A DNA stretch of 64,000 bases from Candidatus Poribacteria bacterium WGA-3G. Its GTDB lineage: Bacteria > Poribacteria > WGA-4E > WGA-3G. This document shows positions 868-59,610 of the stretch, in pieces (position 1 is the stretch's first letter; every line of letters begins with the position of its first letter). The position numbers were made by a program, and so were the translations under genes. The notes under the pieces were generated by a model. It saw only the letters and a list, made by a program, of their open reading frames with translations. It ran no database searches and was not told the origin of the DNA. Where the stretch lies: positions 11,309 through 75,308 of the forward strand of contig ASZN01000014.1 in assembly GCA_000406005.1 (NCBI GenBank), in the 5' to 3' direction.

Positions 868-2883
868 ATGAAAAATATTGATGTTGAACTTATCCACCGT
901 GTTCTTGATGGTGATGATACTGCCTTCAGTGAACTTGTGAAAAAGTACCAAAAGCCGGTTCACGCGCTTGTGTGGCGTAAGGTTGGAGATTTCCACATCG
1001 CCGAGGAGATTACACAGGATACATTCCTAAAGGCATATCAGGGATTGGCAACGCTGAAAAAACCGCAGAGTTTTGCGAGTTGGCTTTATGTGATTGCTGC
1101 GAATCACTGCAGCACGTGGCTGCGTAAAAAGCGTCTACGGACACAATCCCTTGAAGAAACGAGCAGCGCGCAGTTAGAAAAGGCAACGTACTCGGGATAT
1201 GTCATTGAAGAGAACGAACAGACAGCGGTAGAAACCCGACGCGAAGCTGTCAAACAATTGCTTGCGAAACTCCAAGAGAGTGAACGTACCGTCATCACAC
1301 TGCATTACTTCGGTGAAATGTCCAGTGTAGAGATTGGGGCGTTTTTAGGTGTATCGGAAAATACGATTAGGAGTCGCCTCCGCCGTGCGCAACAGCGTTT
1401 AAAGAAGGAGGAGCCGATGATTCGAGAGGTTTTAGAAAATTTTCAAATCACATCGCATCTCCCGGAAGACATCATGCGAGAGATTTCACGTTTGAAACCT
1501 GCAGTTCCGTCCGGCGGTAGACCGCTGGTACCTTGGGCGATCGCTGCTTCTACGGTAGCCTTAATATTTGTGATGTTAGGTGCCAGTAATCAATACTTAT
1601 CGCGTTTCCAAAAACCGTATAGTTTCGATGCGATGTCAGAGATGACGATTGAATTAATTGAAGCCCCAGTCGTGCTAAACCTTGCGGCCAAACCGGACGT
1701 GCGGAATCAATTCGGTAATGCGGATACAAGAAATAAAAACAGTAAGGTCAACCAGAAACCTGACGCAACTTTATTTCCTTCTGCCTCCGGTCATATTCTT
1801 GATGAAGCGGGGGAACCGGTATCCGGGATCAAGATAGCCGTTACACCTGTTGTAGATGGCAATGGTGCTTGGTTCCGGATTCGAGAACGCAACTCCGCGT
1901 CATCTCAAGCGGAAAGCGATGCAGCGGGTCATTTCACTATCACCAGCGTTATTGATGGTCCCGTGCTATTGTCACTATTTCCATTCCACAGATCGGATGT
2001 CCGAATTTTAAAAGTTCAAATCGGAGCATCATTTTTTTCTCCGAGTGGAATGGGCGATCGTGGAATTGTGTTTGCCACGAGTCCGGGGAGACGTATTGAA
2101 AACATTAAAGTAATCGTACAACACCCACACATCCGTGGAAGGGTGCAGTATACAGACGGAACACCCATCGTCAATACGAAAGTCAAGCTCCGTTTACGAA
2201 CAGTGAGTTTATACGGAAATTCTTCCAGCGATGGGAGTGCTCGGACAGATGCCGAAGGGTACTTTACGCACTATACCGAGAGGGATTTGGAGGTACCAAC
2301 ATTTTATATGCTGTCTGTCGGACATCAGACACAGACGGTGAATGCAAAACCGATTATTCTTAAACCCGGCGATCAAACCCACGAGGTTATTTTCACGTTT
2401 GAGACTATGCCAGAGCGGCCTTTACCTGCACGGCATCCCGGATTCGCAAGAGCGTCGGCTTCAACAAGTTCCCGTGCGCATAATGTATGGGTCGTCAGTC
2501 CAGAAAATGGGCATGCTTACAAAAAAATTCAATGTGAGGATTGGGAAGACGCTCAAGCCCAAGCTGCTGCCGAAAGTGCGTATCTCGTTACAATTAATGA
2601 CGAAACGGAACAGAAATGGCTGCAAGTCGTTTTGGGGGGTGAACCGAGTTGGATTGGACTTAACGACATCGCGCAAGAGGGACAATGGATCTGGGACAAC
2701 GGCGAACCGGTCACCTACACAAACTGGGGACTTCAAGAACCCGGTGATACCCGTATCGGAGCAGAGGATTATGTTATTATAGGGCCTTCAGGGAAATGGG
2801 AAGACTTTGGCTCCGGACATGGCGGAATATCCCTAATTCGGACGGCACTGATTGAGAAAGAAAATTTGCCGGTGAAGCAGTAA
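868..2883 (+). CDS. ECF-type sigma-70 factor fused to a TM helix, CarboxypepD_reg-like beta-sandwich segments and a C-terminal C-type lectin domain
   Basis: Single 671-codon ORF with a GGAGGTG RBS. Sigma region 2 reads DTFLKAYQ..WLYVIAANHCSTWLRKKR and the region 4 HTH reads ERTVITLHYFGEMSSVEIGAFLGVSENTIRSRLRRAQQRL. One TM helix (PWAIAASTVALIFVMLGA). Two G-x-V/I-x-D-x-x-G-x-P ... TD/SD-A-x-G-x-F segments. CTLD signature WIGLNDIAQEGQWIWDNGEPVTYTNW. Confidence 0.85.
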   Translation: MKNIDVELIHRVLDGDDTAFSELVKKYQKPVHALVWRKVGDFHIAEEITQDTFLKAYQGLATLKKPQSFASWLYVIAANHCSTWLRKKRLRTQSLEETSSAQLEKATYSGYVIEENEQTAVETRREAVKQLLAKLQESERTVITLHYFGEMSSVEIGAFLGVSENTIRSRLRRAQQRLKKEEPMIREVLENFQITSHLPEDIMREISRLKPAVPSGGRPLVPWAIAASTVALIFVMLGASNQYLSRFQKPYSFDAMSEMTIELIEAPVVLNLAAKPDVRNQFGNADTRNKNSKVNQKPDATLFPSASGHILDEAGEPVSGIKIAVTPVVDGNGAWFRIRERNSASSQAESDAAGHFTITSVIDGPVLLSLFPFHRSDVRILKVQIGASFFSPSGMGDRGIVFATSPGRRIENIKVIVQHPHIRGRVQYTDGTPIVNTKVKLRLRTVSLYGNSSSDGSARTDAEGYFTHYTERDLEVPTFYMLSVGHQTQTVNAKPIILKPGDQTHEVIFTFETMPERPLPARHPGFARASASTSSRAHNVWVVSPENGHAYKKIQCEDWEDAQAQAAAESAYLVTINDETEQKWLQVVLGGEPSWIGLNDIAQEGQWIWDNGEPVTYTNWGLQEPGDTRIGAEDYVIIGPSGKWEDFGSGHGGISLIRTALIEKENLPVKQ

Positions 2884-2914
2884 GTTTTATGTTCTACGCA
2901 AAAGGAGAAAAATT

Positions 2915-4273
2915 ATGAAACGTTCATCCTACACAAAAGGTTTTTCTTTCTTAATAACAGTTGTTTCGCTTTTCATCGGCTTCGGTTCACAGAGCATTGC
3001 TGCGGAAGAGGAGACAGGAACTTTCTCTGGACGCGTTGTCGATGTAGAAGGGAATCCGGTTGCAGAGTTACCCGTTATGATTGGCCCCACGATGCCTATC
3101 GGACCCGGGATTCGATCTGCTTTCTTCCCAACGAATTATCCGACGACGCGACGCGCCCTCACAGATGCAGACGGACGGTTTTCCATTACAGGTATCGCCG
3201 CAAGGATGTCGTACTTCAGTGCACTCCCGCGTAACGTGGATGTACTGTTTCCAAAGGATCTTGAGGCGAAAATTGCGAAGGCTATAGAAGAGAAGGATTT
3301 CGCTGCGATACACACGAGTCGTGTTACAGAGATGGAAAGGGACGATTTTGAACCCGACTTTGAGGTTATATCTATTGACATCCGCGGTATAACCTTCTAT
3401 CCGCGTAATGATTTTAGTCGGATCGGGTTTAGTGTTGAACGGGGGTCGCATATTAAAAACGTGAAAGTCATTGTGCAACCTCGGATGCGGATTCGGGGAC
3501 GTGTTCTTTTCAAAGACGGGACACCGCTCCGCAACGCGCGGCTCCGCCTCGGTCTCAATTACATTCGTGAAGATGGACAGGGACACGGAAGTTCAGGCGG
3601 AAAACCCCGAACAGATGCTGATGGCTACTTTCTCTTTTATTTAGACGAGAAAGACGATACTGCAAACTACACATTTTCGGTGGAGTACCAAGAAGTTGAG
3701 GCGACGGCTGGCCCTGTGCTTCTTAAGCCCGGGGATCGACTTGATGGACTCACTTTCACTTTTGACAGCGAACCGATTGCCCCCAAACCACCTGATAAAA
3801 TGCCATTCAATCCGTCCGCTACGCCACCGGCACCCAAACCTATATCAATTCCAACGTTTGAAACGGTTTGGATCGTCAATCCCACAAATGGACACGCCTA
3901 TAAAAAGATTCCGTGTGAGTCTCGTGACGCTGCTGTTGCCCAAGCGACAAAAGAAAAAGCACATCTCGTCGCGATTAATGATGCTGAGGAGCAGGCGTGG
4001 CTCTCAGCGGTTTTTGGAAATGAGTTCTATTGGATAGGGCTTAGCGATGGAGAAAAAGAAGGACAGTGGCAGTGGGATAACGGCGAACCTGTCACTTATG
4101 AAAATTGGTTACCCGACGATTTCTTTTCTGAATCCGCTAATACTGGTGAAAGAGATTACGCCGTCACGACATTCACAGAGGGGAAATGGTATGCCGTTAG
4201 TCCTAAAAGTATACTCTTGCGAATGACTGCGATGGCGATCCTTGAAAAACCAGATATGCTTGATAGGCAATAA
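2915..4273 (+). CDS. secreted CarboxypepD_reg-like / C-type lectin protein, paralogous to the sensor part of 868..2883
   Basis: AAAGGAG RBS and a signal peptide (FLITVVSLFIGFGSQSIAAEE). Contains GRVVDVEGNPV..TDADGRFSITGI and IRGRVLFKDGTPLRNARLRL..TDADGYF. CTLD signature WIGLSDGEKEGQWQWDNGEPVTYENW. Confidence 0.8.
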   Translation: MKRSSYTKGFSFLITVVSLFIGFGSQSIAAEEETGTFSGRVVDVEGNPVAELPVMIGPTMPIGPGIRSAFFPTNYPTTRRALTDADGRFSITGIAARMSYFSALPRNVDVLFPKDLEAKIAKAIEEKDFAAIHTSRVTEMERDDFEPDFEVISIDIRGITFYPRNDFSRIGFSVERGSHIKNVKVIVQPRMRIRGRVLFKDGTPLRNARLRLGLNYIREDGQGHGSSGGKPRTDADGYFLFYLDEKDDTANYTFSVEYQEVEATAGPVLLKPGDRLDGLTFTFDSEPIAPKPPDKMPFNPSATPPAPKPISIPTFETVWIVNPTNGHAYKKIPCESRDAAVAQATKEKAHLVAINDAEEQAWLSAVFGNEFYWIGLSDGEKEGQWQWDNGEPVTYENWLPDDFFSESANTGERDYAVTTFTEGKWYAVSPKSILLRMTAMAILEKPDMLDRQ

Positions 4274-4374
4274 TAGTTAGAGTCGGGTGATCTGTTGCCC
4301 GCTGGATGTTTCAGCATTTGAAAAAAGGAATTTACTATGAATCTTCAACGTCTCAGTCTAAAACTTGGCATTTT

Positions 4375-4593
4375 CGTCGCGGTTATAGTATTCTCCTTAG
4401 TGTGTTAACATTCTCACCCGATGGAAAAATCCTTCTCGACCCTAAATCAATAAGTTGGCAACCCCTCATCCAGTTATGGGATGTGGATATTGGCACCGAT
4501 CTCGGCGGAATCCTTTCCGGGCATACGGAAAGCATAGAAACGTTGGTGTTTTCACACGATGGGAAAACCCTGGCAAGCAAAGGAGCAAATATC
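4375..4593 (+). pseudogene. relic 3' end of a third WD40 paralogue, fused in frame to the next gene
   Basis: The translation RRGYSILLSVLTFSPDGKILLDPKSISWQPLIQLWDVDIGTDLGGILSGHTESIETLVFSHDGKTLAS matches the last ~60 aa of both downstream WD40 genes. About 23 codons plus the stop are deleted at the junction. There is no N-terminal part and no credible start. Confidence 0.6.
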
Positions 4594-6627
4594 ATGAAAG
4601 CAAAACACCTATTCTTCATCACTTTTCTATTCGCTGCTGCGATGTTCTCGACCAGTTTCGCACAAGACAATACGAAAGTCGGATTACCTGAGGGTGCCAT
4701 CGCACGACTCGGAAAAGGTGGTATCAATTTGATGCGGTTTTCACCCGACGGTACCCGTCTCGCAGTGGGAACGGATGTCGGCGTGTGGCTATACGATGTG
4801 CCTCATGGCAAAGAGACTGCCCTGTTCACAGAACACCCCGGACAAGTCAATGCACTTGCTTTCTCAACAGATCGAAAAATCCTCGCAAGTGGCGGGTTCG
4901 CGAACCCTGTCATACAACTCTGGAATTTGGAAACTGACAGTAAACTTTCTACCCTAAAATTAGCCGAGAGACACGATTCAATAACAGCATTGGCATTTTC
5001 CGAAGATAACACAATATTGATCAGTTTGGACACATTTGGTGATATTATCTATTGGGATGTGGAGACCGGCAGCAAATTGTTGGATCCAAGGAACGTAGAC
5101 CCCGTAGACACATACGAAGTAGCAGCACTCTCCCAAAACGGTAGCATGGCCGCCATTGGAGACAAAAACGGTACACAAATTCATTTATGGAACACAACAA
5201 CCGGAAGACGACGGGTAACCCTTAATGGACATACAAATTTTTTCAAAGAGGGACCGGATGAAGACGAAAAGGATGCAGACATTCAGGCAATGGCATTTAC
5301 ATCGGACGGAAAAACCCTCGTTAGCGGAAGCGAAGACAAGACAGTACAACTATGGAATACGAACGGTACTAAACGCTCAACCCTCAGAGGGCATCAAGGT
5401 TGGGTTACTACCGTTGCCTTTTCATCTGATGGTGCAATCGTTGCCAGTGGCGATACGAATAAGGTAATCAAGGTATGGGATGTGGACACCGGGCACGAAC
5501 GCGCGACGCTTATAGGACCCAAAAACACCATCAATGCGCTAACCTTCGCTCCCGAAGGAACACCCCTTTATAGCAAGTGTCTTGCCAGTGGCAGCGCAGA
5601 TGGCACAATCCGATTCTGGGATCCAGAGACTGGACAGGAACTGATTACCTTTACTGTGGGACATACAGAATGGGTGAAAGCCGTCGCGTTTTTTGTAGAT
5701 GGAACAACACTTGCGAGTGCTGCGTTCAACGGCACTGTTGAAATATGGAGTCTAATGACCAAGCGGGAACTTATCACATTTACTGCTGGACAAAGCAATT
5801 TAGCCGAGTTAGCCGTATTGTCCCCTGATGGTAAATTCTTCGTGACTCGAGGGTACAACGGTCCAATTGCAATTGCGTTCAATCCGTATGGGTGGGGTGC
5901 CCGTTCTAACCCGAAAGAGCGCGGCAGCATGCAGTTATGGAAAATCACTACTAATGAGCAGCTTCCTGGTCCCTGGCAGAACGTTGCAGATACCACGATA
6001 TCACTCGCATTCTCGCCGGAGAATAAAATACTCGCAAATCGCGGTCCCAAAAATATTCAGGCGTGGGATATGAAAACCAGCATTGAACTGTTCCATCTTA
6101 ACACGGAGAATCCATTTCCAAGGAAGTTGACGTTCTCACCCAATGGAACTCTACTTTGTGTCTACGGCATTCATGGCATCCCAGAGGTATGGGATGTAGA
6201 CGCGCGACGCGAGTTCCCTACATTCACCAACGAACGAGCCTGGAGTTTGGCATTCTCACCCAATAATACTATCCTTGCGCTTGGACATCGGGATAGCATT
6301 ACTTTGTGGGATGTAACGACAACAGGCATGCAGGAGCGCAGCGTAATTCCTGATAATTACCGAGGATTCAGTGATATATTAACATTCTCGCCTGATGGAA
6401 AGACACTCCTGGGTTCTAAATGGGATGGTCTATCTCGAATCCAGTTATGGGATGTGAACACTGGCAGAACTTTAGGAATCCTGTCTGGACATACCGAACC
6501 TATAGAAACGCTGGTGTTCTCACACGACGGGAAAACGCTCGCCAGTGGTAGCGAGGATGGCACAGTACTCCTCTGGGATTGGGACGAAATCATCGCAAAG
6601 CAAACACCTAATGACAAAGGAAATTAA
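4594..6627 (+). CDS. secreted WD40-repeat beta-propeller protein
   Basis: ATG at 4594 is preceded by AGGAG (4581-4585). Signal peptide MKAKHLFFITFLFAAAMFSTSFA/QD. Many WD40-like blades (FSxDGKxLASG....LWD/VWDV). Confidence 0.85.
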   Translation: MKAKHLFFITFLFAAAMFSTSFAQDNTKVGLPEGAIARLGKGGINLMRFSPDGTRLAVGTDVGVWLYDVPHGKETALFTEHPGQVNALAFSTDRKILASGGFANPVIQLWNLETDSKLSTLKLAERHDSITALAFSEDNTILISLDTFGDIIYWDVETGSKLLDPRNVDPVDTYEVAALSQNGSMAAIGDKNGTQIHLWNTTTGRRRVTLNGHTNFFKEGPDEDEKDADIQAMAFTSDGKTLVSGSEDKTVQLWNTNGTKRSTLRGHQGWVTTVAFSSDGAIVASGDTNKVIKVWDVDTGHERATLIGPKNTINALTFAPEGTPLYSKCLASGSADGTIRFWDPETGQELITFTVGHTEWVKAVAFFVDGTTLASAAFNGTVEIWSLMTKRELITFTAGQSNLAELAVLSPDGKFFVTRGYNGPIAIAFNPYGWGARSNPKERGSMQLWKITTNEQLPGPWQNVADTTISLAFSPENKILANRGPKNIQAWDMKTSIELFHLNTENPFPRKLTFSPNGTLLCVYGIHGIPEVWDVDARREFPTFTNERAWSLAFSPNNTILALGHRDSITLWDVTTTGMQERSVIPDNYRGFSDILTFSPDGKTLLGSKWDGLSRIQLWDVNTGRTLGILSGHTEPIETLVFSHDGKTLASGSEDGTVLLWDWDEIIAKQTPNDKGN

Positions 6628-6629
6628 AA

Positions 6630-8672
6630 ATGAAAGCAATACAAATTCTTGGCATCACGTTTCTATTTGCTGCTGCAATGCTCTCAAACAGTTTCGCGCA
6701 AGACAACACGAAAGTCGGATTACCGGAAGGTGCGATCGCACGTCTCGGAAAAGGCGGTATCAATCTGATGCGGTTTTCACCAGACGGGACCCGTCTCACA
6801 GTGGGAACGGATGTCGGCGTGTGGGTATACGATGTGCCGACTGGCGAAGAGATGGCTCTGTTTACGGGACATAAAGGACAAGTCAGCACGCTTGCGTTTT
6901 CATCAGATGGAAAAACCCTCGCGAGTGGTGGATTTAATAATCCTGTCATTCAACTGTGGGATGCGGAAACTGGTAACAAACTTTCAACGCTTCTATCAAC
7001 CGAAAAACACCATTCAACCACAGTATTAGCATTCTCACAAGACAACACAACGCTCATCAGTCTGGATCGGTTTGGCAAAATCATCCACTGGAGTGTTGCA
7101 ACGGGTAAGAGATTGGCAAACAGAAGTAGAAATGTGGGTTCATACGATGTAGTGACAGTCTCTCAGGACGGGAACACCTTTGCTACGGGGAATCAACACG
7201 GTAAAATCTATTTATCGGATTCAACCACAGGTAGACAGTTGGCATCCATCAGGGGACATACCCAACTTTTGGCATCTTTGAAGTCTGTTTTAGGTTGGAC
7301 TGACAGACCTCCGCAAGATGAGGAGGTGCAAGCATTGGCGTTTTCATCAGATGGCAAGATGCTCATGAGCGGCGGCGAAAACAAGATTGTCGGGTTGTGG
7401 AATGTAGAGAAACGCACTAAACATGCCACGCTCAAGGGACATAAGGAGTGGCTTACTGCCGTCGCATTCTCCACTGATGGCAAAACCGCTGCCAGTGGCG
7501 ATGCGGGTAAGGTCATCAAGTTATGGGATGTCGGCACCGGACGTGAACGTGCGACACTTAGAGGGCACAAAAGTACTATCAATGCGCTAACCTTTACGCC
7601 TGATAACGCACCGCTTTATGCCGGATGTCTTGTCAGTGGCAGTGCAGACGGCACAATCCGATTCTGGAATCCGAGCACTGGGCAAGAACTCCTTACCTTT
7701 ACCACAGGGCATACAGAATCGGTGAAAGCCGTCGCGTTCTCGAAAAATGACACAACACTTGCAAGTGCAGCTTTCAACGGGATTGTTGAGATATGGAGCC
7801 TAAAAACAGCACAAGAATTGGCTACTTTTACTAAAGCAGAAAGCGATTTAACTGGGGCAGTCGCCTTTTCGCACGATGCTACGCACTTCGCGATCCGTGG
7901 TGGAAGCGGCGCAATTGCGTTTGATCCGTTAGGCTTCGGAGGTACCGCAAGTGGACCCGGTCCCGGTAACATTCAATTGTGGAATATAGCCACTGGTGAA
8001 CAGATTCCCGGACCTTGGGAGGATGCTGGAGACAACGCGAAAGCGCTTGCATTTTCACCCGATAAGAAGATACTCGTCGCTGATTTTGGTCGTCAAGGTA
8101 TTCGTTCGTGGGACCTAAATACCCGGCTTGAGCTGTTCCACTTTCACACAGCAGAACCGTTTGGAAGGAAGTTTGCGTTCTCACCCACTGGAACTTTATT
8201 CGCTACCAATGGCACGCATGTGCAAACACATGTCTGGGATGTTGACACGCACGCCGAAATCACGCCGCCCAATATCCAAGAAGTTAGTGCCTTGGCTTTT
8301 TCACCGGGCGGCATTATTCTCGCACACGGACATCATCGGGACGGCATTGTTTTCTGGCATGTAACGCCAACAGGCATAAAAGAACACAGCAGAATCCCGA
8401 AGAGTCAGCGCGGGTTTAGCGATGTATTAACATTCTCCCCGGATGGGAAAATCCTTCTTGACCCTAAATTGGATATTTGGGATCCTATCATCCAGTTGTG
8501 GGATGTGGAAACCGGTGAGGAATTGAAGACCCTCTCTGGGCATACGGAACATATAGAAACGTTGGTATTTTCACACGACGGAAAAACGCTTGCCAGCGGT
8601 AGTGCTGATGGCACGGTCCTGCTCTGGGATTGGGAGGCAGTCACCGCGGAGAGGGTGCCAGATAACAAATAG
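6630..8672 (+). CDS. secreted WD40-repeat beta-propeller protein, tandem paralogue
   Basis: Starts 2 nt after the previous stop. Signal peptide MKAIQILGITFLFAAAMLSNSFA/QD. The 5' ~200 nt and the 3' end are near-identical to 4594..6627. Confidence 0.9.
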   Translation: MKAIQILGITFLFAAAMLSNSFAQDNTKVGLPEGAIARLGKGGINLMRFSPDGTRLTVGTDVGVWVYDVPTGEEMALFTGHKGQVSTLAFSSDGKTLASGGFNNPVIQLWDAETGNKLSTLLSTEKHHSTTVLAFSQDNTTLISLDRFGKIIHWSVATGKRLANRSRNVGSYDVVTVSQDGNTFATGNQHGKIYLSDSTTGRQLASIRGHTQLLASLKSVLGWTDRPPQDEEVQALAFSSDGKMLMSGGENKIVGLWNVEKRTKHATLKGHKEWLTAVAFSTDGKTAASGDAGKVIKLWDVGTGRERATLRGHKSTINALTFTPDNAPLYAGCLVSGSADGTIRFWNPSTGQELLTFTTGHTESVKAVAFSKNDTTLASAAFNGIVEIWSLKTAQELATFTKAESDLTGAVAFSHDATHFAIRGGSGAIAFDPLGFGGTASGPGPGNIQLWNIATGEQIPGPWEDAGDNAKALAFSPDKKILVADFGRQGIRSWDLNTRLELFHFHTAEPFGRKFAFSPTGTLFATNGTHVQTHVWDVDTHAEITPPNIQEVSALAFSPGGIILAHGHHRDGIVFWHVTPTGIKEHSRIPKSQRGFSDVLTFSPDGKILLDPKLDIWDPIIQLWDVETGEELKTLSGHTEHIETLVFSHDGKTLASGSADGTVLLWDWEAVTAERVPDNK

Positions 8673-9611: not shown

Positions 9612-10727
9612 TTATACCTCAACTTGTCGAAGATCTGCTTGGTCAAGTGTATTTGTACCTAAACCGAGACTGCTTGCTGTATTGATATGGTTGGCGAATT
9701 TGGATACAGAATCTAAATCCATCTCTTCACGTTTTTGGTTGACCGTCTGGAGTACCAACACATCAAGAATAACGGGGTCAGCACTGATAAAGAGACTCCC
9801 GTATTGCCACGTGCTTTCGGCGTGATATGTCGGTCCTCTATCGAACGAAGCGAGCAATCCATCAACAATATTAAGGGTCAACTTGTCTTTCAGCACCTTA
9901 TGCTCCAAAATCTCACTGATAGCCGGATTGCAATAAATCGGCTTTCCGTGAAACCGACGTGTATTATCGACACTCCCGAACGCGAGATTCTTTAAGCATC
10001 CGCTCACGCCTGCCATGGCGTGGTGCTTCAAGACGGGAACGTTGATGATTACATCGACCTGCTCGGTGACGATTCGGGAGTAACGCGAACGGATACTTTC
10101 GTTCTCACGGCGTGCAAGACTATCCTTCTCGCTCTCATAGTAGACCTCATCGTCATACCCAATTCCGTCCGTATCGGAGGCGAAGGTTTGCACATCGCTC
10201 TCATCTCGCTTGATGGGGTAACCGGCATTTAGGAGGTGCTCCTCAAACCGGTCCCAGATAATAATCTGTTTCCGAAGCACCCCGGCACCGTATAACCCGT
10301 CAACAATTTTATCGACGATGATAGAATGCGTGCTAAGTTCTGGTCCCGCGAGTGGATTAATTTTTATGCCGACAACATCATCGGGTAGCACAATATCTCG
10401 CCACGCCTCTTTCGCGGAGGAACGGCCCGTCAACTTCATCATCGCCTGATCCATCAGTTCACTCACAGCATCTTCATTGAGCTGATCGTTTTCCCACACC
10501 TCTTTACCGATAGCCTCAACGACAGGTGTAAGAGATGCTGCCCCTGTCGTCTCAGGTTGTAATTGCCCGCTACTTAACTGTGCGAACGCCGGGAGCGTGC
10601 TAAGCGCACCACCGGAATATGCGGCAAGTCGGGTTAAGAACTGCCGTCGATTGAGCGATCTTTTGGAATCGGTCGCTTCTTCGCTGTCAGCGATGATATT
10701 TGCTATAACTGTGTCGTGAGGTTTCAT
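9612..10727 (-). CDS. Tat-signal DUF362-like protein
   Basis: Twin-arginine signal NRRQFLTRLAAYSGGALSTLPAFA. VGIKINPL-type core typical of DUF362. The ATG overlaps the upstream TGA stop (TGATGA). Confidence 0.65.
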   Translation of the reverse strand: MKPHDTVIANIIADSEEATDSKRSLNRRQFLTRLAAYSGGALSTLPAFAQLSSGQLQPETTGAASLTPVVEAIGKEVWENDQLNEDAVSELMDQAMMKLTGRSSAKEAWRDIVLPDDVVGIKINPLAGPELSTHSIIVDKIVDGLYGAGVLRKQIIIWDRFEEHLLNAGYPIKRDESDVQTFASDTDGIGYDDEVYYESEKDSLARRENESIRSRYSRIVTEQVDVIINVPVLKHHAMAGVSGCLKNLAFGSVDNTRRFHGKPIYCNPAISEILEHKVLKDKLTLNIVDGLLASFDRGPTYHAESTWQYGSLFISADPVILDVLVLQTVNQKREEMDLDSVSKFANHINTASSLGLGTNTLDQADLRQVEV

Positions 10728-11821
10728 CAAAGTTTACCTAATTCTGTGAGGATTTGCGCTGTTGGTACACGCGCAGCCTTGGTATTCAAAGATTTCCAAG
10801 CGATCGTTCCATCCTTGCGGACGATATAGGCGGCAGGACGTGCTATCCGATTGTTGCCAGGATCGACGACGTTGTAGACAGTGATCGCCTCTTTGTCGTT
10901 ATCCGCCAGGACTGGAAATTTGAGCCCATGGTTTTGAACCGTCTGTTTGGTGTCGCCTTCGTTATCGGAACTGATCGCAATGAGTTCCGCGCCTGCAGCT
11001 TGAATCTTCGCATAGTTCTGTTGCAACTCACCGAGTTGCGTTCTGCAGAAGGGTCACCAGCCGCCGCGGTAAAAAATAAGGACAACGTTTTTATCAGCGA
11101 TATAATCATCAAGGGCGTGCGCTTTACCGGTGCTGTCTGGTAAGACAAAGTCGGGGGCTTGGCTTTCAATACGCAAGCCTTGACCGGGAGGCAGCTCCTC
11201 CGCTTCTGGCACTGGTATGAGTTCGACCGTCAGTTCCAGCGTTTCATCCGCTGGTATCGGATCGACTGCTACCTCTTTGTCTTCGTAACCGGCGTGAGCG
11301 ATCATCAAAGCCATAGATTGCTGCACGGGGAGATTTTCAAAGGTGAAAACGCCTGCTGCTGTTGTTAACGTTTCGTAGATATTCCCTGTGTTATCCGTGA
11401 GTTGGAGACTGACACCGCCAAGCACTTCACCCGTCGTTTCGTTCGTTAAAACGCCGTATAAATGCGAGACTGGCGTTTTCAATGCGACGAGCGTTACCTT
11501 GTCAAGCGATACAACCTCTTCAGCGATGACTGTGACGGCTATCTCTTCCGTTTCATAGCCTTTCGCCGATATCTGGAGCGTATAGCTTCCAGCCTCAATC
11601 TCGCCAATTTCATAACTCGCCTGCGTCTCTATTTGCTTCACAAGTTGTCCATCTTTTAGTAAGCGTACCTGAATCCGTACGCCGTCAATTGATTGGACAT
11701 CGCCACGCAAAGTACCCGTTGTATCGGTTTCCACTGTCTCCTCAACCGGATTTTCAGTTTCACAGCCGAATCCTGCGAACAGTAGTAGCGCAAGCGCGAG
11801 GGGTGCCAGTATGTGTTTCAT
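10727..11821 (-). CDS. lipoprotein selenoprotein: CarboxypepD_reg-like repeats plus a peroxiredoxin-like (AhpC/TSA, Prx-like) domain with UxxC
   Basis: Track ORFs 11054..11821 and 10727..11026 are in the same frame, joined by TGA at 11054-11056. The read-through gives APDFVLPDSTGKAHALDDYIADKNVVLIFYRGGW-U-PFCRTQLGELQQNYAKIQAAGAELIAISSD, which is the FYRGxWCPxC redox motif with Sec at the first Cys. Lipobox FAGFG-C at the N-terminus. Confidence 0.75.
11016..11050 (-). promoter_or_regulatory. bacterial SECIS-like stem-loop
   Basis: The mRNA reads UGA CCC UUCUG cagaac GCAACUC GGU GAGUUGC aa CAGAA. It has a 7-bp upper stem, a GGU apical loop 22-24 nt after the UGA, and a 5-bp lower stem. Confidence 0.5.
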
Positions 11822-11831
11822 TGTTTTTCCT

Positions 11832-12638
11832 CTATCTGCCTATTTGCCGCTTGATTCTGCCCCACGTTGTTGTGAGTTTGTTAACGGGGTCAACGGCGGC
11901 GGCAGTTTCAACACCGGCATCCATGAGTGCATCCATATCCTCTTCACTCAGAGCGACATTGAAGAGGGCGACATCATCGATGATACCTTCAGTATAGCGG
12001 TCATAGTGCCGTCCGACGTGAAATACGCCGTCACTGGTGCCGTATCCATCTTTTGCGTTGAAATCGACTTCGGCTTCCATTTTGCCATCAACCCATATTG
12101 AGGCTTTGCCAGTATCTGCATCCGCTCGTCCGGCAATGAAGTGCCATTTCTCATCGGCGATAGGCGTAGTACCGTGCGCAGGAAAACTGGTTCCGGCACT
12201 ATCCCGTAAATAGAGGCTCACGGTGTTTTTGGAACCGTTGTCCCAAAGTAGATACCACGGCGTTGCCTGCGATGTATCCTCATAGTTTTTGCCGACGAGC
12301 GAACCACCAACCTTACTGCCTTTGAAATAGCAGGTGATCGTGAACGATACGCCCGCCTTAAACGCGACAGTGTTCGAGTGCGGAACTTCAACCCAATTGC
12401 TAACACCATCGAATTCAAGTGCTTTACCGAACTTGCCGTCAACCCACTTTGCACCATGGATTTCACCATCGTTCCCATTTCCTGATGCGTCTGCAGCGGC
12501 ACCACCGTTCCCTTCGTCAAAGAACCACATTCCGGTGATAGCCTCGGGATCAATTTTGGCGAGACTCGGGAGCGTTATCAGCAAAAAGATGCCCATCAGA
12601 GCCACAAAGCTGATGTGTACACTCTTAGGTAAATACAT
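11832..12638 (-). CDS. secreted LamG / concanavalin A-like lectin domain protein
   Basis: Signal peptide. Contains GNGNDGEIHGAKWVDGKFGKALEFDG ... ALFNVALSEEDM, typical of Laminin_G_3. The C-terminal tail reads VDPVNKLTTTWGRIKRQ. Confidence 0.8.
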   Translation of the reverse strand: MYLPKSVHISFVALMGIFLLITLPSLAKIDPEAITGMWFFDEGNGGAAADASGNGNDGEIHGAKWVDGKFGKALEFDGVSNWVEVPHSNTVAFKAGVSFTITCYFKGSKVGGSLVGKNYEDTSQATPWYLLWDNGSKNTVSLYLRDSAGTSFPAHGTTPIADEKWHFIAGRADADTGKASIWVDGKMEAEVDFNAKDGYGTSDGVFHVGRHYDRYTEGIIDDVALFNVALSEEDMDALMDAGVETAAAVDPVNKLTTTWGRIKRQIGR

Positions 12639-28381: not shown

Positions 28382-28612
28382 CTATGCTGCGTCTATTGCA
28401 GCTGCAATCTGCTCTGTCGTTGGAAACTGCCGAGTCTCTAACTTCGAGTAGAGCAACGTTCCGTTTAACGAGACTTCAAAAGCCCCACCACTGCCCGGAA
28501 CGAGATCAACTTGCTTAACTTCTGCACCATACTTCTCTTTTAAGGCATCTGCCAAACTGGCTGCCCGTGGTTGGTAGTTTCAAGAGGTGCAATATTCAAT
28601 TTTCACTTCCAT
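28382..28612 (-). CDS. SelW/Rdx-family selenoprotein (CxxU), 76 codons, not in the ORF track
   Basis: Manual translation gives MEVKIEYCTS-U-NYQPRAASLADALKEKYGAEVKQVDLVPGSGGAFEVSLNGTLLYSKLETRQFPTTEQIAAAIDAA. AGGAGG lies 9 nt upstream of the ATG (28612). In-frame TGA at 28580-28582 and TAG stop at 28382-28384. The IEYC..U...RA..L...G.FEV..NG.L.YSK pattern matches Rdx proteins. Confidence 0.75.
28544..28565 (-). promoter_or_regulatory. bacterial SECIS-like stem-loop
   Basis: The mRNA reads GGCA GCCA GUU UGGC aga UGCC, starting 15 nt after the UGA. The GUU apical loop lies 23-25 nt after the UGA. Confidence 0.5.
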
Positions 28613-35191: not shown

Positions 35192-35888
35192 CTATTTGAG
35201 AATTACCATTTGGCGTGTGGTTCTGAATTGGCCTGCCTGAAATGTGTAGAAGTAGATACCACTCGCGACCGGTTCACCGACAGCGTTTCGACCATCCCAA
35301 TATGCGGCGCGAGATTGTATGCGATAGGTGCCAGCCGTCTGTAAACCGAGGGATAACTGCCGAATGGATTCACCTTTTAAGTTATAAATGTCAATGTTGA
35401 CATCCGCGTCTTCTGCTAAATCATAAGGTATCCACGTCTCAGGGTTGAAAGGATTCGGATAGTTCGGCAAAAGCACAGTTTCCGTCGGCAGAGTTGTGTC
35501 GATGAGGCGTTCTAAAGTAGCGATCCCTTGTCGAAAAACGTCAGAACCGTCGTCTGCGAACCGGGCTTCGGTCAGCCATTCATCGGCAAGCGTAGCGTGT
35601 TCGGCGCGAAGATGCGTTGACGCGGGCGGTGCTGCAGGATTGACAGATTCGCCGAAATGTGCGGCGACAAGGAGCAGATCAATGATGTCGACACGTCCGT
35701 CCTTGTTCACATCAACCTTCGGTGGTTCTGGGGACGCTACATCGAAGTTGTTTGCGACTAAAATCAGGTCTTGAATATCAACAGTCCCGTCGCTATCTAT
35801 ATCCCAAGGTAGCATTTGTGGAACAGGGATTTGTTCTTGCGTTTCAGGCAAAGCCTCTCGCCATCCAGCATGAAGTTGCTCGCTGAGG
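35192..35888. repeat. ~697-bp near-identical segment shared with 37283..37979
   Basis: The 3' ends of the two sulfatase genes align without indels at high identity, whereas the catalytic parts are much more diverged. Confidence 0.85.
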
Positions 35889-37270
35889 TGTGTGCCGAGT
35901 TCTGCGTTTTCCGGAAGATCCACGATATTAACGGTTTCATTTGGGTCAGTGCTGTAGTCATAGAGTTCTCGGCCAAGTTCTGCATTCTTTCCCCATTCGG
36001 TATATCGGTATTGTTCTGTTCGGATGGAGATACCACCATTTCGATTTCCACCGAACTCGCTAAAAGCAGCGGTTTTCCATGAACGCGCTGGTTGCTCAAT
36101 AACGGGCATCAGGCTTAAACCTTCTACCTTTGAAGGGACCGGGAGTTGGCAGGCATCACACAATGTAGGATAGATATCAACGAGTTCGCTGAGAACCTCG
36201 GTTCGGTTAGACTGTTGTCCCGGCACACTGATAATCAAAGGGGATCTGAGTGAAACCTCAAAAAGGGTTTGCTTTCCCCACATTCCGTGATCCCCAAGAT
36301 GGTAGCCGTGGTCTCCACAGAAAACGATAACCGTATTCTCCGTGAGTCCAAGTGAATCTAGCTGCGATAAAACTTGTCCGATTTGGGCATCCATATAGCT
36401 TGTGGCTGCGGCGTATGCTTTAATTAGATCCAGGGTTTTCGCGTCAGAAAGTGGCTCTGTTCCAGAAGGCAGATCTTGATAGGCTCTGATCGCGTTCCAA
36501 TTGTTGGTTGCTCTACTCGGAACATCCATAGGTGGCTCAGAAGAGGCAGGCAGGTTAAGGGTTTGGTCATCGTATAACTCAAAGTATTTCCTTGGTATCT
36601 TGTGAGGCAAATGAGGTTGGAAGAATCCGAGCGTTAAAAAAAATCGCTGGTCTTTGATCTGTTGCAATACTTCAACCGCCCGATTTGCGATTTTCCCATC
36701 CTCTAATTCATCGTCGGCAATATCTAAGATTTGCCATGAGGGTGTATCTGGTATACTATATGGAATGTAAATAGGTCTCCATGATGGAACACTCCATGAG
36801 TACGCATCATCTTGGAGACGCGGCAGCGTGAATACTCTACCGAGGGACTGTGTATGGTAACCGTGTGTTTTGAAATGTTGTGGTAGGGTTATTGCGTTTG
36901 GTACTGTTTGCCGCAAATCTGTTCTGTTATTTAGGATTTCCGTGGTCTCAGTTCTGAATCCAGTCATCATTGAAATTCGGGATGGACTACAGATCGGATA
37001 TTGACAGTATGCCCGGTTAAAGAGCGTGCCTCGATCAGCGATTCTATCAATATTGGGTGTGTGGATCTCCGGGTGACCATAACATCCAAGTAGAGGACGT
37101 AGATCGTCTCCAATGATAAACAACACGTTGTATTGCCCTTCTGCGTCGGCTTGGAGTTTAGGCAATAGCCCTGTCGTGAAAGCAGCTGCACCTACTTTGA
37201 AACTGGTTGAAAGAAAGTCTCGCCTGCTAAGTGCTTGTGACAACGCCTTCGATTGCTTTATCTGTTGCAT
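35192..37270 (-). CDS. Tat-exported formylglycine-dependent sulfatase with dockerin-like repeats and a T9SS-type C-terminal domain
   Basis: Tat signal SRRDFLSTSFKVGAAAF. CxPxR motif in YPICSPSRISMMTG. Dockerin-like segments DIDSDGTVDIQDLILV and DVNKDGRVDIIDLLLV. CTD sequence NYPNPFNPETWIPY...YFYTFQAG. Confidence 0.9.
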   Translation of the reverse strand: MQQIKQSKALSQALSRRDFLSTSFKVGAAAFTTGLLPKLQADAEGQYNVLFIIGDDLRPLLGCYGHPEIHTPNIDRIADRGTLFNRAYCQYPICSPSRISMMTGFRTETTEILNNRTDLRQTVPNAITLPQHFKTHGYHTQSLGRVFTLPRLQDDAYSWSVPSWRPIYIPYSIPDTPSWQILDIADDELEDGKIANRAVEVLQQIKDQRFFLTLGFFQPHLPHKIPRKYFELYDDQTLNLPASSEPPMDVPSRATNNWNAIRAYQDLPSGTEPLSDAKTLDLIKAYAAATSYMDAQIGQVLSQLDSLGLTENTVIVFCGDHGYHLGDHGMWGKQTLFEVSLRSPLIISVPGQQSNRTEVLSELVDIYPTLCDACQLPVPSKVEGLSLMPVIEQPARSWKTAAFSEFGGNRNGGISIRTEQYRYTEWGKNAELGRELYDYSTDPNETVNIVDLPENAELGTHLSEQLHAGWREALPETQEQIPVPQMLPWDIDSDGTVDIQDLILVANNFDVASPEPPKVDVNKDGRVDIIDLLLVAAHFGESVNPAAPPASTHLRAEHATLADEWLTEARFADDGSDVFRQGIATLERLIDTTLPTETVLLPNYPNPFNPETWIPYDLAEDADVNIDIYNLKGESIRQLSLGLQTAGTYRIQSRAAYWDGRNAVGEPVASGIYFYTFQAGQFRTTRQMVILK

Positions 37271-37282
37271 GATTCGATTTCC

Positions 37283-37979
37283 TTACTTTACAATTGCCAT
37301 TTGGCGTGTGATTCTGAATTGGCCTGCCTGAAACGTGTAAAAATAGATACCACTCGCAACGGGTTCACCGACAGCGTTTCGACCATCCCAATATGCGGCG
37401 CGAGATTGTATGCGATAGGTGCCAGCCGTCTGTAAACCGAGGGATAACTGCCGAATGGATTCACCTTTGAGATTATAAATGTGGATGTCGACATCCGCAT
37501 CTTCTGCTAAATCATAAGGTATCCACGTCTCTGGATTAAATGGATTCGGATAGTTGGGCAAAAGCACAGTTTCCGTCGGCAGAGTTGTGTTGGTGAGGCG
37601 TTCTAAAGTAGCGATCCCTTGTCGAAAGACATCAGAACCATCGTCTGCGAACCGGGCTTCGGTCAGCCATTCATCGGCAAGCGTAGCGTGTTCGGCGCGA
37701 AGATGCGTTGACACGGGCGGTGCTGCAGGATTGACAGATTCGCCGAAATGTGCGGCGACAAGGAGTAGATCAATGATGTCAACACGTCCATCCTTGTTCA
37801 CATCAACCTTCAGAGGTTTTGGGGACGCTACATCGAAGTTATTTGCGACTAAAATCAGGTCTTGGATATCGACAGTGCCGTTGTCATCTATATCCCAAGG
37901 TAACATTTGTGGAACCGAGATTTGTTCCTGCATCTCAGGCAAAGCCTCTCTCCATCCAGCGTGAAGTCGCTCGCTGAGG
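37283..37979. repeat. second copy of the sulfatase 3' repeat
   Basis: See 35192..35888; the offset is exactly 2091 bp. Confidence 0.85.
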
Positions 37980-59571: not shown

Positions 59572-59595
59572 TTTTATTTTCCTTGCGGTTCGTTA
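59572..59595 (-). promoter_or_regulatory. conserved leader cassette GTAACGAACCGCAAGGAAAATAAAA-ATG
   Basis: Lies within the 39-nt hen1-pnkp spacer. Confidence 0.5.
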
Positions 59596-59610
59596 CATGG
59601 GACTTCTGTT

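What the first reader, a model, noticed from the sequence alone, without database searches (positions are those of the whole stretch)
10727..11821. Selenocysteine-containing lipoprotein peroxiredoxin, split into two ORFs by an in-frame UGA
Seen: ORFs 11054..11821 and 10727..11026 share a frame, and the joining TGA (11054-56) falls exactly at the first Cys of the redox motif FYRGGW-U-PFC. A 7-bp stem with a GGU loop lies 22-24 nt downstream. A second, independent UGA-plus-hairpin gene exists at 28382..28612. Established: the FYRGxWCPxC Prx-like/AhpC-TSA family has known Sec-containing members, and bacterial SECIS elements place a GU-containing apical loop about 16-37 nt after the UGA. Unusual: the Prx domain follows a lipobox and two CarboxypepD_reg-like domains, so the selenoenzyme would be extracytoplasmic.
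Basis: partly seen in the sequence, partly recalled or inferred. Interest (0 to 1): 0.65.

Follow-up and report, generated by a model that had tools for sequence, protein, structure and literature searches.

The report
Exported selenocysteine Prx-like oxidoreductase of Poribacteria
The two "ORFs" are one gene for an exported redox enzyme whose active-site residue is selenocysteine, encoded by a recoded UGA stop codon kept in all 53 related sponge-symbiont (Poribacteria) species found; the enzyme family is a known selenoprotein family, but this domain architecture is new and is split into two genes in public annotations.

Summary
On the minus strand, 11821..10727 is one reading frame interrupted by a single TGA (11056..11054). 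The TGA lies inside an AhpC/TSA domain, at the first position of a W-U-P-F-C motif. A perfect 7-bp hairpin with a GGU loop starts 14 nt downstream.

- **Conservation:** 53 of 53 species-level Candidatus Poribacteria genomes keep TGA at this codon, followed by 108-109 conserved in-frame codons. No Cys form of this architecture was found.
- **Hairpin:** the 6-bp core is nucleotide-invariant in 54 of 54 sequences, although four-fold sites differ by 53% on average. Its two Leu codons are the only invariant six-fold codons in the gene. The first loop base is always G.
- **U/C column:** in distant full-length homologues this column is Cys in 60 of 62.
- **Second gene:** a SelW/Rdx CxxU selenoprotein gene lies at 28612..28382.
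- **Sec machinery:** no sel genes or tRNA-Sec were found in the window. The only support is a published COG table for Poribacteria WGA-3G.

The Sec aligns with the nucleophilic Cys of ResA/TlpA-type WCxxC proteins, and the peroxiredoxin Pro/Thr/Arg residues are missing. It is therefore a "Prx-like" UxxC thiol:disulfide oxidoreductase, a selenoprotein family known since 2004, here fused to a signal peptide and two CarboxypepD_reg domains. I rate it a new variant of a known kind, of moderate interest.

The parts
10727..11821 (-). Complete selenoprotein gene: 364 codons plus stop, with one in-frame UGA
   Evidence: The same structure is present in 53 of 53 Poribacteria loci.
11762..11821 (-). Signal peptide MKHILAPLALALLLFAGFGC, ending in an invariant Cys20 (lipobox-like AGFGC)
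   Evidence: Cys20 is invariant in alignment A1. Lipobox variants are tabulated. There is no twin-arginine motif. Lipidation is inferred.
11477..11713 (-). First CarboxypepD_reg-like beta-sandwich domain (about aa 37-115)
   Evidence: Pfam PF13620 matches in 2 stretches. EMC7_beta-sandw and PEGA hits fall in aa 50-112.
11219..11461 (-). Second CarboxypepD_reg-like domain (aa 121-201)
   Evidence: Pfam PF13620 best stretch is aa 121-201, E 1.1e-16.
10796..11167 (-). Prx-like / ResA-like thioredoxin-fold domain (aa 219-342) carrying the UxxC motif
   Evidence: Pfam AhpC-TSA 1.3e-32 and Redoxin 1.4e-18. PDB sequence hits to Bcp 6e-16 and ResA 5e-14.
11054..11056 (-). UGA codon 256, read as selenocysteine. 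It is always preceded by UGG and followed by C.
   Evidence: TGA in 54 of 54 sequences. The aligned residue is Cys in 60 of 62 distant homologues.
11045..11047 (-). Cys259, the second residue of the UxxC motif, at the position of the peroxidatic Cys of Prx and the second Cys of ResA
   Evidence: PFC is invariant in 54 of 54 sequences with synonymous TGC/TGT variation.
11023..11039 (-). SECIS-like hairpin GCAACUC-GGU-GAGUUGC. The invariant core is 11024..11038, and the loop 11030..11032 lies 22-24 nt after the UGA.
   Evidence: The core CAACUC/GAGUUG is invariant in 54 of 54 (one A-U becomes G-U). Loops are GGU, GGC, GGA or GUU. Codons L263, E265 and L266 have zero synonymous variation.
11832..12638 (-). 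Upstream gene for a secreted LamG-like (Laminin_G_3) protein, 10 nt from the selenoprotein start codon
   Evidence: Pfam match. It is upstream of the selenoprotein gene in 53 of 53 loci, directly in most and about 1 kb further up in about eight (for example L001, L002, L004).
9612..10727 (-). Downstream gene for a DUF362 protein with a twin-arginine signal (NRRQFL). Its ATG overlaps the selenoprotein stop codon (TGATG).
   Evidence: It lies immediately downstream in 53 of 53 loci.
28382..28612 (-). Independent second selenoprotein gene, SelW/Rdx-like with a CxxU motif. UGA at 28580..28582; hairpin 28543..28566 with loop GUU at nt 23-25 after the UGA.

Best explanation
Window 11821..10727 (-) is one gene for a 364-residue exported selenoprotein.

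**Architecture.** A Sec-translocon-type signal peptide ends in an invariant Cys, which is probably the lipid-anchor Cys of a lipoprotein. Two CarboxypepD_reg beta-sandwich domains follow, probably as a stalk or binding module. The C-terminal thioredoxin-fold domain belongs to the 'Prx-like' group and has the active site W-U-P-F-C.

**Recoding.** UGA256 is decoded as selenocysteine by SelB and Sec-tRNA(Sec). These are recruited by a minimal SECIS: a 6-7 bp stem with a 3-nt G-first loop, whose conserved core stem begins 15 nt after the UGA and lies inside the coding sequence for R-x-Q-L-G-E-L-Q.

**Chemistry (inferred).** The Sec occupies the position of the exposed nucleophilic Cys of ResA/TlpA-type WCxxC proteins. 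It would attack an oxidised substrate (a disulfide, a sulfenic acid or possibly a peroxide) in the periplasm or at the cell surface. It would then form a selenenylsulfide with Cys259 and be re-reduced by an unidentified donor.

**Context.** The gene sits in a conserved three-gene cluster with a secreted LamG-like protein and a Tat-exported DUF362 protein.

**Shown:** a single frame, phylum-wide TGA conservation, the Cys-aligned column, the RNA-level constraint and the domain content. **Inferred:** actual Sec insertion, lipidation, substrate and reductant.
For: - **Single frame:** one TGA inside an AhpC-TSA domain.
- **TGA conservation:** 53 of 53 Poribacteria species genomes have TGA plus 108-109 in-frame codons.
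- **Database split:** 119 of 120 N-terminal database homologues end in F[YF]RGxW. The exception is a frameshift. The C-terminal 99-aa fragments are 73-98% identical.
- **Coding between the UGA and the supposed downstream start:** P-F-C is invariant with synonymous variation, so this stretch is translated.
- **Hairpin constraint:** the core is invariant in 54 of 54 sequences while four-fold sites differ by 0.53 on average. Only 2 of 39 conserved six-fold codon columns are invariant, and both are the stem Leu codons.
- **Loop base:** the first loop base is G in 54 of 54. This matches the bacterial SECIS consensus cited in PMC13582414 and PMC1088965.
- **Chance:** a hairpin of this kind is expected by chance about 0.6% of the time.
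- **U/C column:** Cys in 60 of 62 distant homologues, as VFYRGxW-C-xx-C.
- **Active-site alignment:** U equals the first Cys of ResA WCxxC. 'RPAAY' aligns with the ResA cis-Pro segment 'LPTSF'.
- **TGA is a normal stop here:** 5 of 47 ORFs use it, including this gene's own end, so there is no code reassignment.
- **Second selenoprotein gene:** a SelW-like gene in the window has a hairpin at the same spacing.
- **Phylum uses Sec:** Poribacteria WGA-3G has SelA, SelB and SelD COG hits (PMC5649159 Table S4). Sec-type hydrogenases are reported from Poribacteria (PMC13582414).
- **Redox residues:** only two Cys/Sec residues follow the N-terminal Cys in 45 of 45 sequences.
Against: - No selA, selB, selD or tRNA-Sec was found in the 64-kb window. 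ARAGORN and Rfam (gathering thresholds) gave nothing, and only about a quarter of the ORFs were scanned with Pfam. The genome itself could not be searched.
- The stem shows no compensatory covariation because it never varies. The structural evidence is therefore constraint, not covariation.
- The hairpin is small (-5.3 kcal/mol consensus) and the region's folding energy is not exceptional (z = 0.26).
- The third loop base is not fixed (U, C or A).
- No NCBIfam model reaches its cut-off. ResA scores 63.9 against 170 and SelL-related 51.9 against 120, so the functional assignment rests on motif-level alignment.
- The residue at lipobox position -1 is Asn in most homologues, which is non-canonical.
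- No structure could be predicted for the read-through protein.
Confidence: 0.85

Rival explanations
1. It is a selenoprotein as described, but it works as a true peroxidase. The Sec, or Cys259 at the peroxidatic position, would reduce H2O2 or organic peroxides in the periplasm, in the manner of a peroxiredoxin or glutathione peroxidase.
For: The best Pfam model is AhpC-TSA and the best PDB sequence hit is a Bcp thiol peroxidase, 6.2e-16. Cys259 aligns with the peroxidatic Cys. From general chemistry, selenols react quickly with peroxides.
Against: The Prx active-site Pro and Thr are replaced: R at -7 and U at -3 relative to Cys259. The Prx Arg position aligns with a Pro, as in ResA's cis-Pro segment. 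The literature classes UxxC 'Prx-like' proteins as thioredoxin-like and not as TxxU Prx (PMC1088965). The PrxU, PrxQ and AhpC NCBIfam models score far below their cut-offs.
Confidence: 0.2
2. The UGA is recoded, but not as Sec. It could be read as Cys by a tRNA(ReC)-type SelC* tRNA, or as Trp or Cys by leaky near-cognate read-through in the weak UGA-C context.
For: UGA is followed by C in 54 of 54 sequences. From general knowledge, this is a leaky termination context. tRNA(ReC) that decodes UGA as Cys with a SECIS is described in some bacteria (PMC13582414, citing Vargas-Rodriguez 2018).
Against: No TGC/TGT form exists in any of 53 species, which would be odd if Cys served equally well. The conserved SECIS-like hairpin and a second, classic selenoprotein gene (SelW-like) lie in the same window. 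SelA, SelB and SelD are reported in Poribacteria.
Confidence: 0.05
3. There are two separate genes, or a pseudogene: a 255-aa CarboxypepD_reg protein that truly ends at FYRGGW, and a 99-aa 'peroxiredoxin family protein' starting at TTG 11026. This is how the region is annotated in public records.
For: Public annotations split it this way. There is a TTG/ATG at codon 266.
Against: The split would cut a thioredoxin fold inside its active site. The unannotated nine codons between the two pieces (PFCRxQLGE) are conserved as protein with synonymous changes. The frame relation and the 108-109-codon length are kept in 53 of 53 species. Homologues with Cys at this column are continuous proteins. The proposed TTG start is the invariant Leu codon of the hairpin.
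Confidence: 0.02

Closest known systems
Prx-like thiol:disulfide oxidoreductase selenoprotein ('Prx-like protein' / 'Prx-like 1', PF00578, UxxC; Kryukov & Gladyshev 2004; Zhang & Gladyshev 2005, 2008; reference protein WP_010940744.1 in PMC13188914)
   Same: It has the same Pfam domain and the same thioredoxin-like UxxC motif, with Sec at the first position. The SECIS lies in the coding sequence just downstream of the UGA. Cys-containing homologues carry WCxxC.
   Different: This protein is fused to a signal peptide with an invariant Cys and to two CarboxypepD_reg domains. That fusion was absent from the ten longest of the top 150 distant representatives (the only ones scanned for domains) and from the GOS fusions listed in the paper. 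Sec is fixed in all 53 species, with no Cys orthologue detected. It sits in a conserved cluster with LamG and Tat-DUF362 genes. Direct sequence comparison with WP_010940744.1 was not possible.
ResA / TlpA / DsbE-type extracytoplasmic thiol-disulfide oxidoreductases (for example B. subtilis ResA, PDB 1st9)
   Same: Both are membrane-anchored or exported and share the AhpC/TSA-like thioredoxin fold. Both have a W-C-x-x-C motif whose first Cys aligns with the Sec, and a cis-Pro segment that aligns (PDB hits 5e-14 to 1e-12).
   Different: This protein has Sec in place of the nucleophilic Cys. It scores 63.9 bits against the NCBIfam ResA cut-off of 170. No cytochrome c maturation or CcdA/DsbD genes lie in the conserved cluster. 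It carries extra beta-sandwich domains.
Canonical peroxiredoxins of the BCP/PrxQ class, and the Sec-containing Prx (TxxU, PrxU)
   Same: They share the overall fold and the best single PDB hit (Bcp, 6e-16). Cys259 is at the peroxidatic-Cys position.
   Different: In PrxU the Sec is the peroxidatic residue (TxxU). Here the Sec is three residues upstream (UxxC), and the Pro, Thr and Arg of the Prx site are absent.
Other predicted exported or lipoprotein selenoproteins (SaoB/SaoX/SaoC of the SAO system, Haft 2022 bioRxiv 10.1101/2022.07.06.499078; DsbA-like and DsbG-like selenoproteins of marine metagenomes)
   Same: These are signal-peptide or lipoprotein selenoproteins that are truncated at the UGA in databases.
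   Different: They belong to unrelated folds and families and occur in other organisms, with other presumed chemistry (metal or organometal binding, or DsbA-type).

Membership tests
Bacterial selenoprotein gene (UGA recoded through a bacterial SECIS) | An in-frame UGA at a position occupied by Cys in homologues | tested here: met
   TGA in 54 of 54 sequences. Cys in 60 of 62 distant full-length homologues.
Bacterial selenoprotein gene (UGA recoded through a bacterial SECIS) | The reading frame continues and is conserved as protein downstream of the UGA | tested here: met
   108-109 in-frame codons in 53 of 53 loci. Downstream fragments are 73-98% identical. PFC is invariant with synonymous variation.
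Bacterial selenoprotein gene (UGA recoded through a bacterial SECIS) | A stem-loop shortly after the UGA with a small apical loop that has G in its first or second position | tested here: met
   A 6-7 bp stem with a 3-nt loop at nt 22-24 after the UGA. The first loop base is G in 54 of 54. Synonymous sites in the stem are frozen. Chance expectation is about 0.6%.
Bacterial selenoprotein gene (UGA recoded through a bacterial SECIS) | Compensatory base changes support the stem | tested here: inconclusive
   None of the 6 pairs shows a double change. All pairs are invariant except one A-U that becomes G-U.
Bacterial selenoprotein gene (UGA recoded through a bacterial SECIS) | selA, selB, selC (tRNA-Sec) and selD in the same genome | not testable with these tools
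   None were found in the window, which was only partly scanned. Literature: Poribacteria WGA-3G has SelA, SelB and SelD COG hits, and Sec-type hydrogenases are reported from Poribacteria.
Bacterial selenoprotein gene (UGA recoded through a bacterial SECIS) | Selenium demonstrated in the protein | not testable with these tools
   This needs 75Se labelling or mass spectrometry.
Prx-like (UxxC) thiol:disulfide oxidoreductase selenoprotein family | A PF00578 AhpC/TSA domain | tested here: met
   E 1.3e-32, 112.8 bits against a cut-off of 26.
Prx-like (UxxC) thiol:disulfide oxidoreductase selenoprotein family | A thioredoxin-like UxxC motif in place of the TxxU of Sec-Prx | tested here: met
   The motif is W-U-P-F-C. 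The family definition is given in PMC1088965 and PMC2398784.
Canonical peroxiredoxin | The PxxxT/SxxC active-site motif plus the conserved Arg | tested here: not met
   In the alignment to Bcp 2cx3, the Pro position is Arg, the Thr/Ser position is Sec, and the Arg position aligns with Pro.
ResA/TlpA-like extracytoplasmic thiol-disulfide oxidoreductase | WCxxC with the first Cys as nucleophile, a cis-Pro segment, and export or membrane anchoring | tested here: met
   Alignments to ResA: GTWCPHC against GGWUPFC, and LPTSF against RPAAY. The signal peptide was seen by inspection.
ResA/TlpA-like extracytoplasmic thiol-disulfide oxidoreductase | Reaches the curated NCBIfam ResA, DsbE or StoA cut-offs | tested here: not met
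   ResA 63.9 against 170, DsbE 26.3 against 123, StoA 32.3 against 210.
Bacterial lipoprotein | A lipobox [LVI][ASTVI][GAS]-C at the end of the signal-peptide h-region | tested here: inconclusive
   The Cys is invariant and is followed by G/E-T-E-N-P. The window has AGFGC, which is acceptable. In the 45 full-length sequences, 32 have GLNC, with Asn at -1, which is non-canonical. No predictor or experiment was available.
SelW/SelT/SelH (Rdx) selenoprotein (the second gene, 28612..28382) | An Rdx-fold match and a CxxU motif with U encoded by UGA | tested here: met
   PF10262 at 1.8e-25. NF041051 at 90.4 against 88, and TIGR02174 at 80.2 against 34.2. The motif is C-T-S-UGA.

The most novel reading that the evidence does not exclude
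The LamG - selenoprotein - Tat-DUF362 cluster, conserved in 53 of 53 Poribacteria species, may be a previously unrecognised extracytoplasmic redox module that strictly depends on selenium. In this reading a lipid-anchored UxxC enzyme, held on a two-domain beta-sandwich stalk, services a Tat-exported DUF362 partner or the cell surface of a sponge symbiont. Sec would be indispensable, since no Cys form exists anywhere in the lineage. Selenium supply would then be a host-symbiont dependency.
Probability: 0.25. Interest if true: 0.55.

Novelty: new variant of a known kind. Interest (0 to 1): 0.4.

Why it matters
**Annotation.** A gene conserved across a whole candidate phylum of sponge symbionts is split in public records. 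The pieces are called 'carboxypeptidase regulatory-like domain-containing protein' and 'peroxiredoxin family protein'. About 60 of the top 150 distant database representatives look like similar C-terminal fragments. No NCBIfam model covers this family, so automatic pipelines will keep splitting it.

**Biology.** This adds an exported, probably lipid-anchored selenoenzyme with a new domain architecture to the bacterial selenoproteome. It shows that Sec can be fixed across a lineage, at 53 of 53 species. It also offers a very small SECIS that is defined by conservation.

**Limits.** It does not change the known principles of Sec decoding or the known list of selenoprotein families.

Tried and rejected
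- **Rfam and tRNA scans:** Rfam at gathering thresholds and ARAGORN on the whole window found nothing: no tRNA-Sec and no curated SECIS family.
- **Sec machinery in the window:** about a quarter of the window ORFs were scanned with Pfam. These were the direct neighbours and the ORFs of SelA or SelD size, which turned out to be E2 acyltransferase, GFO/IDH/MocA, Hen1 and Wzy_C. The rest were only inspected by their ends. No sel gene was seen, so the window search is not exhaustive.
- **Structure prediction:** No structure or fold search was done.
- **Long-range pairing:** the two CTGCAG sites seen in the centroid fold do not form a conserved pair. The 3' partner varies without compensation.
- **Other recoded genes:** a scan of the window for further UGA-plus-hairpin genes found only off-frame noise besides the target.
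- **Cys form of the architecture:** none was found among the GTDB species representatives that matched the two peptide patterns, nor among the top 120 protein hits. Hits 121-318 were not visible.
- **Wider partnership with DUF362:** the one distant Cys homologue whose neighbours could be read (P0266) has no DUF362 or LamG neighbour.
- **Code reassignment:** rejected, because TGA terminates 5 of 47 ORFs, including this gene.
Full report
**1. Observation**

On the minus strand the ORF 11821..11054 (255 aa) ends ...KNVVLIFYRGGW-TGA. The same frame continues PFCRTQLGELQQNYAKIQ... for 108 more codons, to TGA at 10729..10727.

With the UGA written as Cys, Pfam gives AhpC-TSA over aa 219-342 (E 1.3e-32). 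That match runs across the UGA. Pfam also gives Redoxin and two CarboxypepD_reg stretches.

Fourteen nucleotides after the UGA lies the perfect hairpin GCAACUC-GGU-GAGUUGC (11039..11023), with its loop at nt 22-24 after the UGA. The folding energy of the whole 73-nt region is unremarkable (z = 0.26). However, a 7-bp Watson-Crick stem with G in the first two loop bases is rare. By the window's own frequency it falls in the 16-37 nt zone after a given UGA only about 0.6% of the time.

It matches Pfam Rdx (1.8e-25) and the NCBIfam SelT/SelW/SelH models above their curated cut-offs. It has a hairpin with a GUU loop at nt 23-25 after its UGA.

**2. Is the UGA really read through?**

*Protein database hits.* The 120 best hits to the read-through protein are all Candidatus Poribacteria-type proteins of about 255-300 aa that cover only the first 65-70% of the query. 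Of these, 119 end in F[YF]RGxW. The one exception is a frameshifted read. A search with the catalytic domain returns the other half as separate 99-aa 'peroxiredoxin' ORFs, 73-98% identical to the window.

*Species genomes.* A scan of one genome per GTDB species found the gene in 53 Poribacteria species, with protein identity from 90% down to 59%. All 53 have TGA at this codon, followed by 108 or 109 in-frame codons.

*The stretch between the two annotated ORFs.* The nine codons between the UGA and the supposed downstream start encode P-F-C-R-x-Q-L-G-E. P-F-C is invariant, yet CCG/CCC/CCA and TGC/TGT vary. This stretch, which lies in no annotated ORF, is therefore under protein-level selection.

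*No code reassignment.* TGA is a genuine stop in this organism. It ends 5 of 47 ORFs, including this gene itself.

*The Cys column.* An exhaustive HMMER search with the 108-aa C-terminal part found 662 relatives. Among the top 150 representatives, 62 full-length proteins show the motif. In 60 of them the residue aligned to the UGA is Cys, as VFYRGxW-C-xx-C-xxQL. About 60 further representatives are roughly 100-aa fragments that begin just after the motif. This is the signature of other mis-split Sec forms.

**3. The RNA element**

Across the window and the 53 loci, the core CAACUC-NNN-GAGUUG is identical in 54 of 54 sequences. The single change, CAA to CAG, converts an A-U pair into G-U. The first loop base is always G, and the loops are GGU, GGC, GGA or GUU. 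The seventh, basal G-C pair is present in about three quarters of the sequences (39 of 54).

There is no compensatory covariation, simply because nothing varies. The argument therefore rests on synonymous constraint:

- In a 45-sequence codon alignment, four-fold sites differ by 0.53 on average between pairs.
- Of 168 conserved degenerate codon columns, only 8 have an invariant codon.
- Of 39 conserved six-fold columns, only 2 are invariant: Leu263 (CUC) and Leu266 (UUG). These two codons form the two arms of the stem.
- Glu265 (GAG) is invariant and Gln262 is CAA in 44 of 45.
- The UGA is always followed by C.

These features match the published bacterial SECIS description: a small apical loop a short distance after the UGA, with G in its first or second position (PMC1088965, PMC13582414).

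**4. Sec machinery**

The window holds no tRNA at all, and no sel gene was found in it. About a quarter of its ORFs were scanned with Pfam. These were the neighbours and the ORFs of SelA or SelD size, which turned out to be unrelated enzymes.

The exact 255-aa ORF occurs in GCA_000401015.1, contig APGO01000158.1. The whole genome could not be searched with these tools.

The evidence is indirect:
- a second, classic selenoprotein gene lies in the same window;
- Table S4 of Slaby et al. 2017 lists COG1921 (SelA) 2, COG3276 (SelB) 1 and COG0709 (SelD) 1 for Ca. Poribacteria WGA-3G (PMC5649159);
- a 2026 survey reports Sec-type group 4 hydrogenases from Poribacteria (PMC13582414).

**5. What kind of enzyme**

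Alignment to solved structures gives two informative results.

- *Against the Bcp peroxiredoxin 2cx3:* FFPAAFSPVC aligns with FYRGGWUPFC. Cys259 therefore takes the peroxidatic-Cys position. The Sec takes the Thr/Ser position, the Prx Pro is an Arg, and the Prx Arg aligns with a Pro.
- *Against ResA:* GTWCPHC aligns with GGWUPFC, and the ResA cis-Pro segment LPTSF aligns with RPAAY.

The catalytic domain is therefore a thioredoxin-like WCxxC oxidoreductase of the Prx-like / ResA-TlpA type, with Sec as the exposed nucleophile. It is not a canonical peroxiredoxin.

This is the known selenoprotein family 'Prx-like protein / Prx-like 1 / Prx-like thiol:disulfide oxidoreductase' (PF00578, UxxC). 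The family counted 22 Sec sequences in the Sargasso Sea data and 225 in GOS, and it is listed as 'predicted with high confidence' in a 2026 review (PMC1088965, PMC2398784, PMC13188914).

No NCBIfam model reaches its cut-off. ResA scores 63.9 against 170 and SelL-related 51.9 against 120. This explains why annotation pipelines split the gene.

**6. Architecture and context**

*Signal and anchor.* The N-terminus MKHILAPLALALLLFAGFGC-ETENP is a typical signal peptide without a twin-arginine motif. Cys20 is invariant. After it, every sequence has exactly two Cys/Sec residues, namely the UxxC pair. The lipobox is acceptable in the window (AGFGC). In 32 of the 45 full-length sequences it is GLNC, with Asn at -1. 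Lipidation is therefore likely but unproven.

*Fusion.* Two CarboxypepD_reg beta-sandwich domains separate the anchor from the catalytic domain. This fusion was not seen in the ten longest of the top 150 distant representatives, the only ones scanned for domains. Those carry tandem redoxin, SurA-N or dockerin modules instead. Many Cys homologues themselves have lipoprotein-type N-termini, so an extracytoplasmic location is normal for the family.

*Gene cluster.* The gene is flanked by two others. A secreted LamG-like gene lies upstream of the selenoprotein gene in 53 of 53 loci: directly upstream with a 10-nt gap in the window, and about 1 kb further upstream in about eight loci. A DUF362 gene carries a twin-arginine signal (NRRQFL), and its ATG overlaps the selenoprotein stop codon (TGATG). 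It follows immediately downstream in 53 of 53 loci. One distant Cys homologue lacks these neighbours.

**7. Mechanism**

*Shown.* There is one gene. The UGA is fixed and aligns with Cys. An RNA hairpin under nucleotide-level constraint sits at SECIS distance. An export signal is present.

*Inferred.* SelB with Sec-tRNA(Sec) reads UGA256. The unfolded protein is exported through the Sec translocon and probably lipidated on Cys20. The selenolate attacks an oxidised substrate and forms a selenenylsulfide with Cys259. An unknown reductant recycles the enzyme.

*Rivals.*
- A genuine peroxidase function: about 0.2.
- Decoding as Cys or Trp: about 0.05.
- Two genes or a pseudogene: about 0.02.

**8. 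Novelty**

The family, the motif and the decoding mechanism are all known. Exported or lipoprotein selenoproteins have also been predicted before (Haft 2022, bioRxiv 10.1101/2022.07.06.499078; DsbA-like and DsbG-like selenoproteins in PMC1088965).

Three things are new:
- the architecture of signal peptide with Cys, two CarboxypepD_reg domains and a UxxC domain;
- its fixation as a Sec form in every Poribacteria species found;
- the conserved LamG / Tat-DUF362 neighbourhood.

In the searchable literature only one paper mentions both Poribacteria and selenoproteins, and it concerns hydrogenases.

Verdict: this is a real selenoprotein gene and a new variant of a known kind. Interest is moderate (0.4).

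Noticed in passing
window 28382..28612 (-): A second selenoprotein gene, SelW/Rdx-like with a CxxU motif. Its UGA is at 28580..28582. A bulged hairpin at 28543..28566 has a GUU loop at nt 23-25 after the UGA, about the same spacing as in the Prx-like gene.
   Followed up: partly
window 9612..10727 (-) and 11832..12638 (-): The selenoprotein gene lies between a secreted LamG-like gene and a DUF362 gene. The DUF362 gene has a twin-arginine signal (NRRQFL) and two conserved-looking Cys residues (GVSGC, IYCNP), and its start overlaps the selenoprotein stop codon (TGATG). The DUF362 gene follows directly in 53 of 53 Poribacteria loci. LamG is upstream in all 53, in about eight of them about 1 kb further up.
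   Followed up: partly
proteins P0241-P0390: About 60 of the top 150 distant representatives of the catalytic domain are roughly 100-aa fragments that begin just after the CxxC motif (for example MYCRTQLGQL and MHCQRQLGEL). They are probably further Sec-containing genes, in other lineages, that have been split at the UGA.
   Followed up: no
protein P0233: A 220-aa relative, 52% identical and on a 793-bp contig, has FYRFGTWGFC. It has neither Cys nor Sec at the first motif position and no CarboxypepD_reg domains. It could be a one-Cys variant or an assembly artefact.
   Followed up: no
whole window: TGA is the rarest stop codon, used by 5 of 47 ORFs, against 26 for TAA and 16 for TAG. The selenoprotein gene ends in a double TGA-TGA.
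   Followed up: no
window 56974..61017 (-): A Hen1_L plus methyltransferase protein (59611..61017, Pfam Hen1_L 2e-116) lies next to an 865-aa P-loop protein (56974..59571). This looks like a bacterial Pnkp/Hen1 RNA-repair pair.
   Followed up: no
window 35192..39379 (-) and 50240..52849 (-): Three large proteins end in a similar ...ASG[IV]Y[FI]Y..F.....(V/I)(I/V)(L/V)K tail. Two of them have twin-arginine-like N-termini (RRDFLSTS). This suggests a shared C-terminal sorting domain.
   Followed up: no
window 868..8672 (+): This stretch holds an ECF-sigma-like protein fused to lectin and CarboxypepD_reg segments, a Lectin_C protein and two large WD40 proteins, which is typical eukaryote-like repeat content for Poribacteria.
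   Followed up: no
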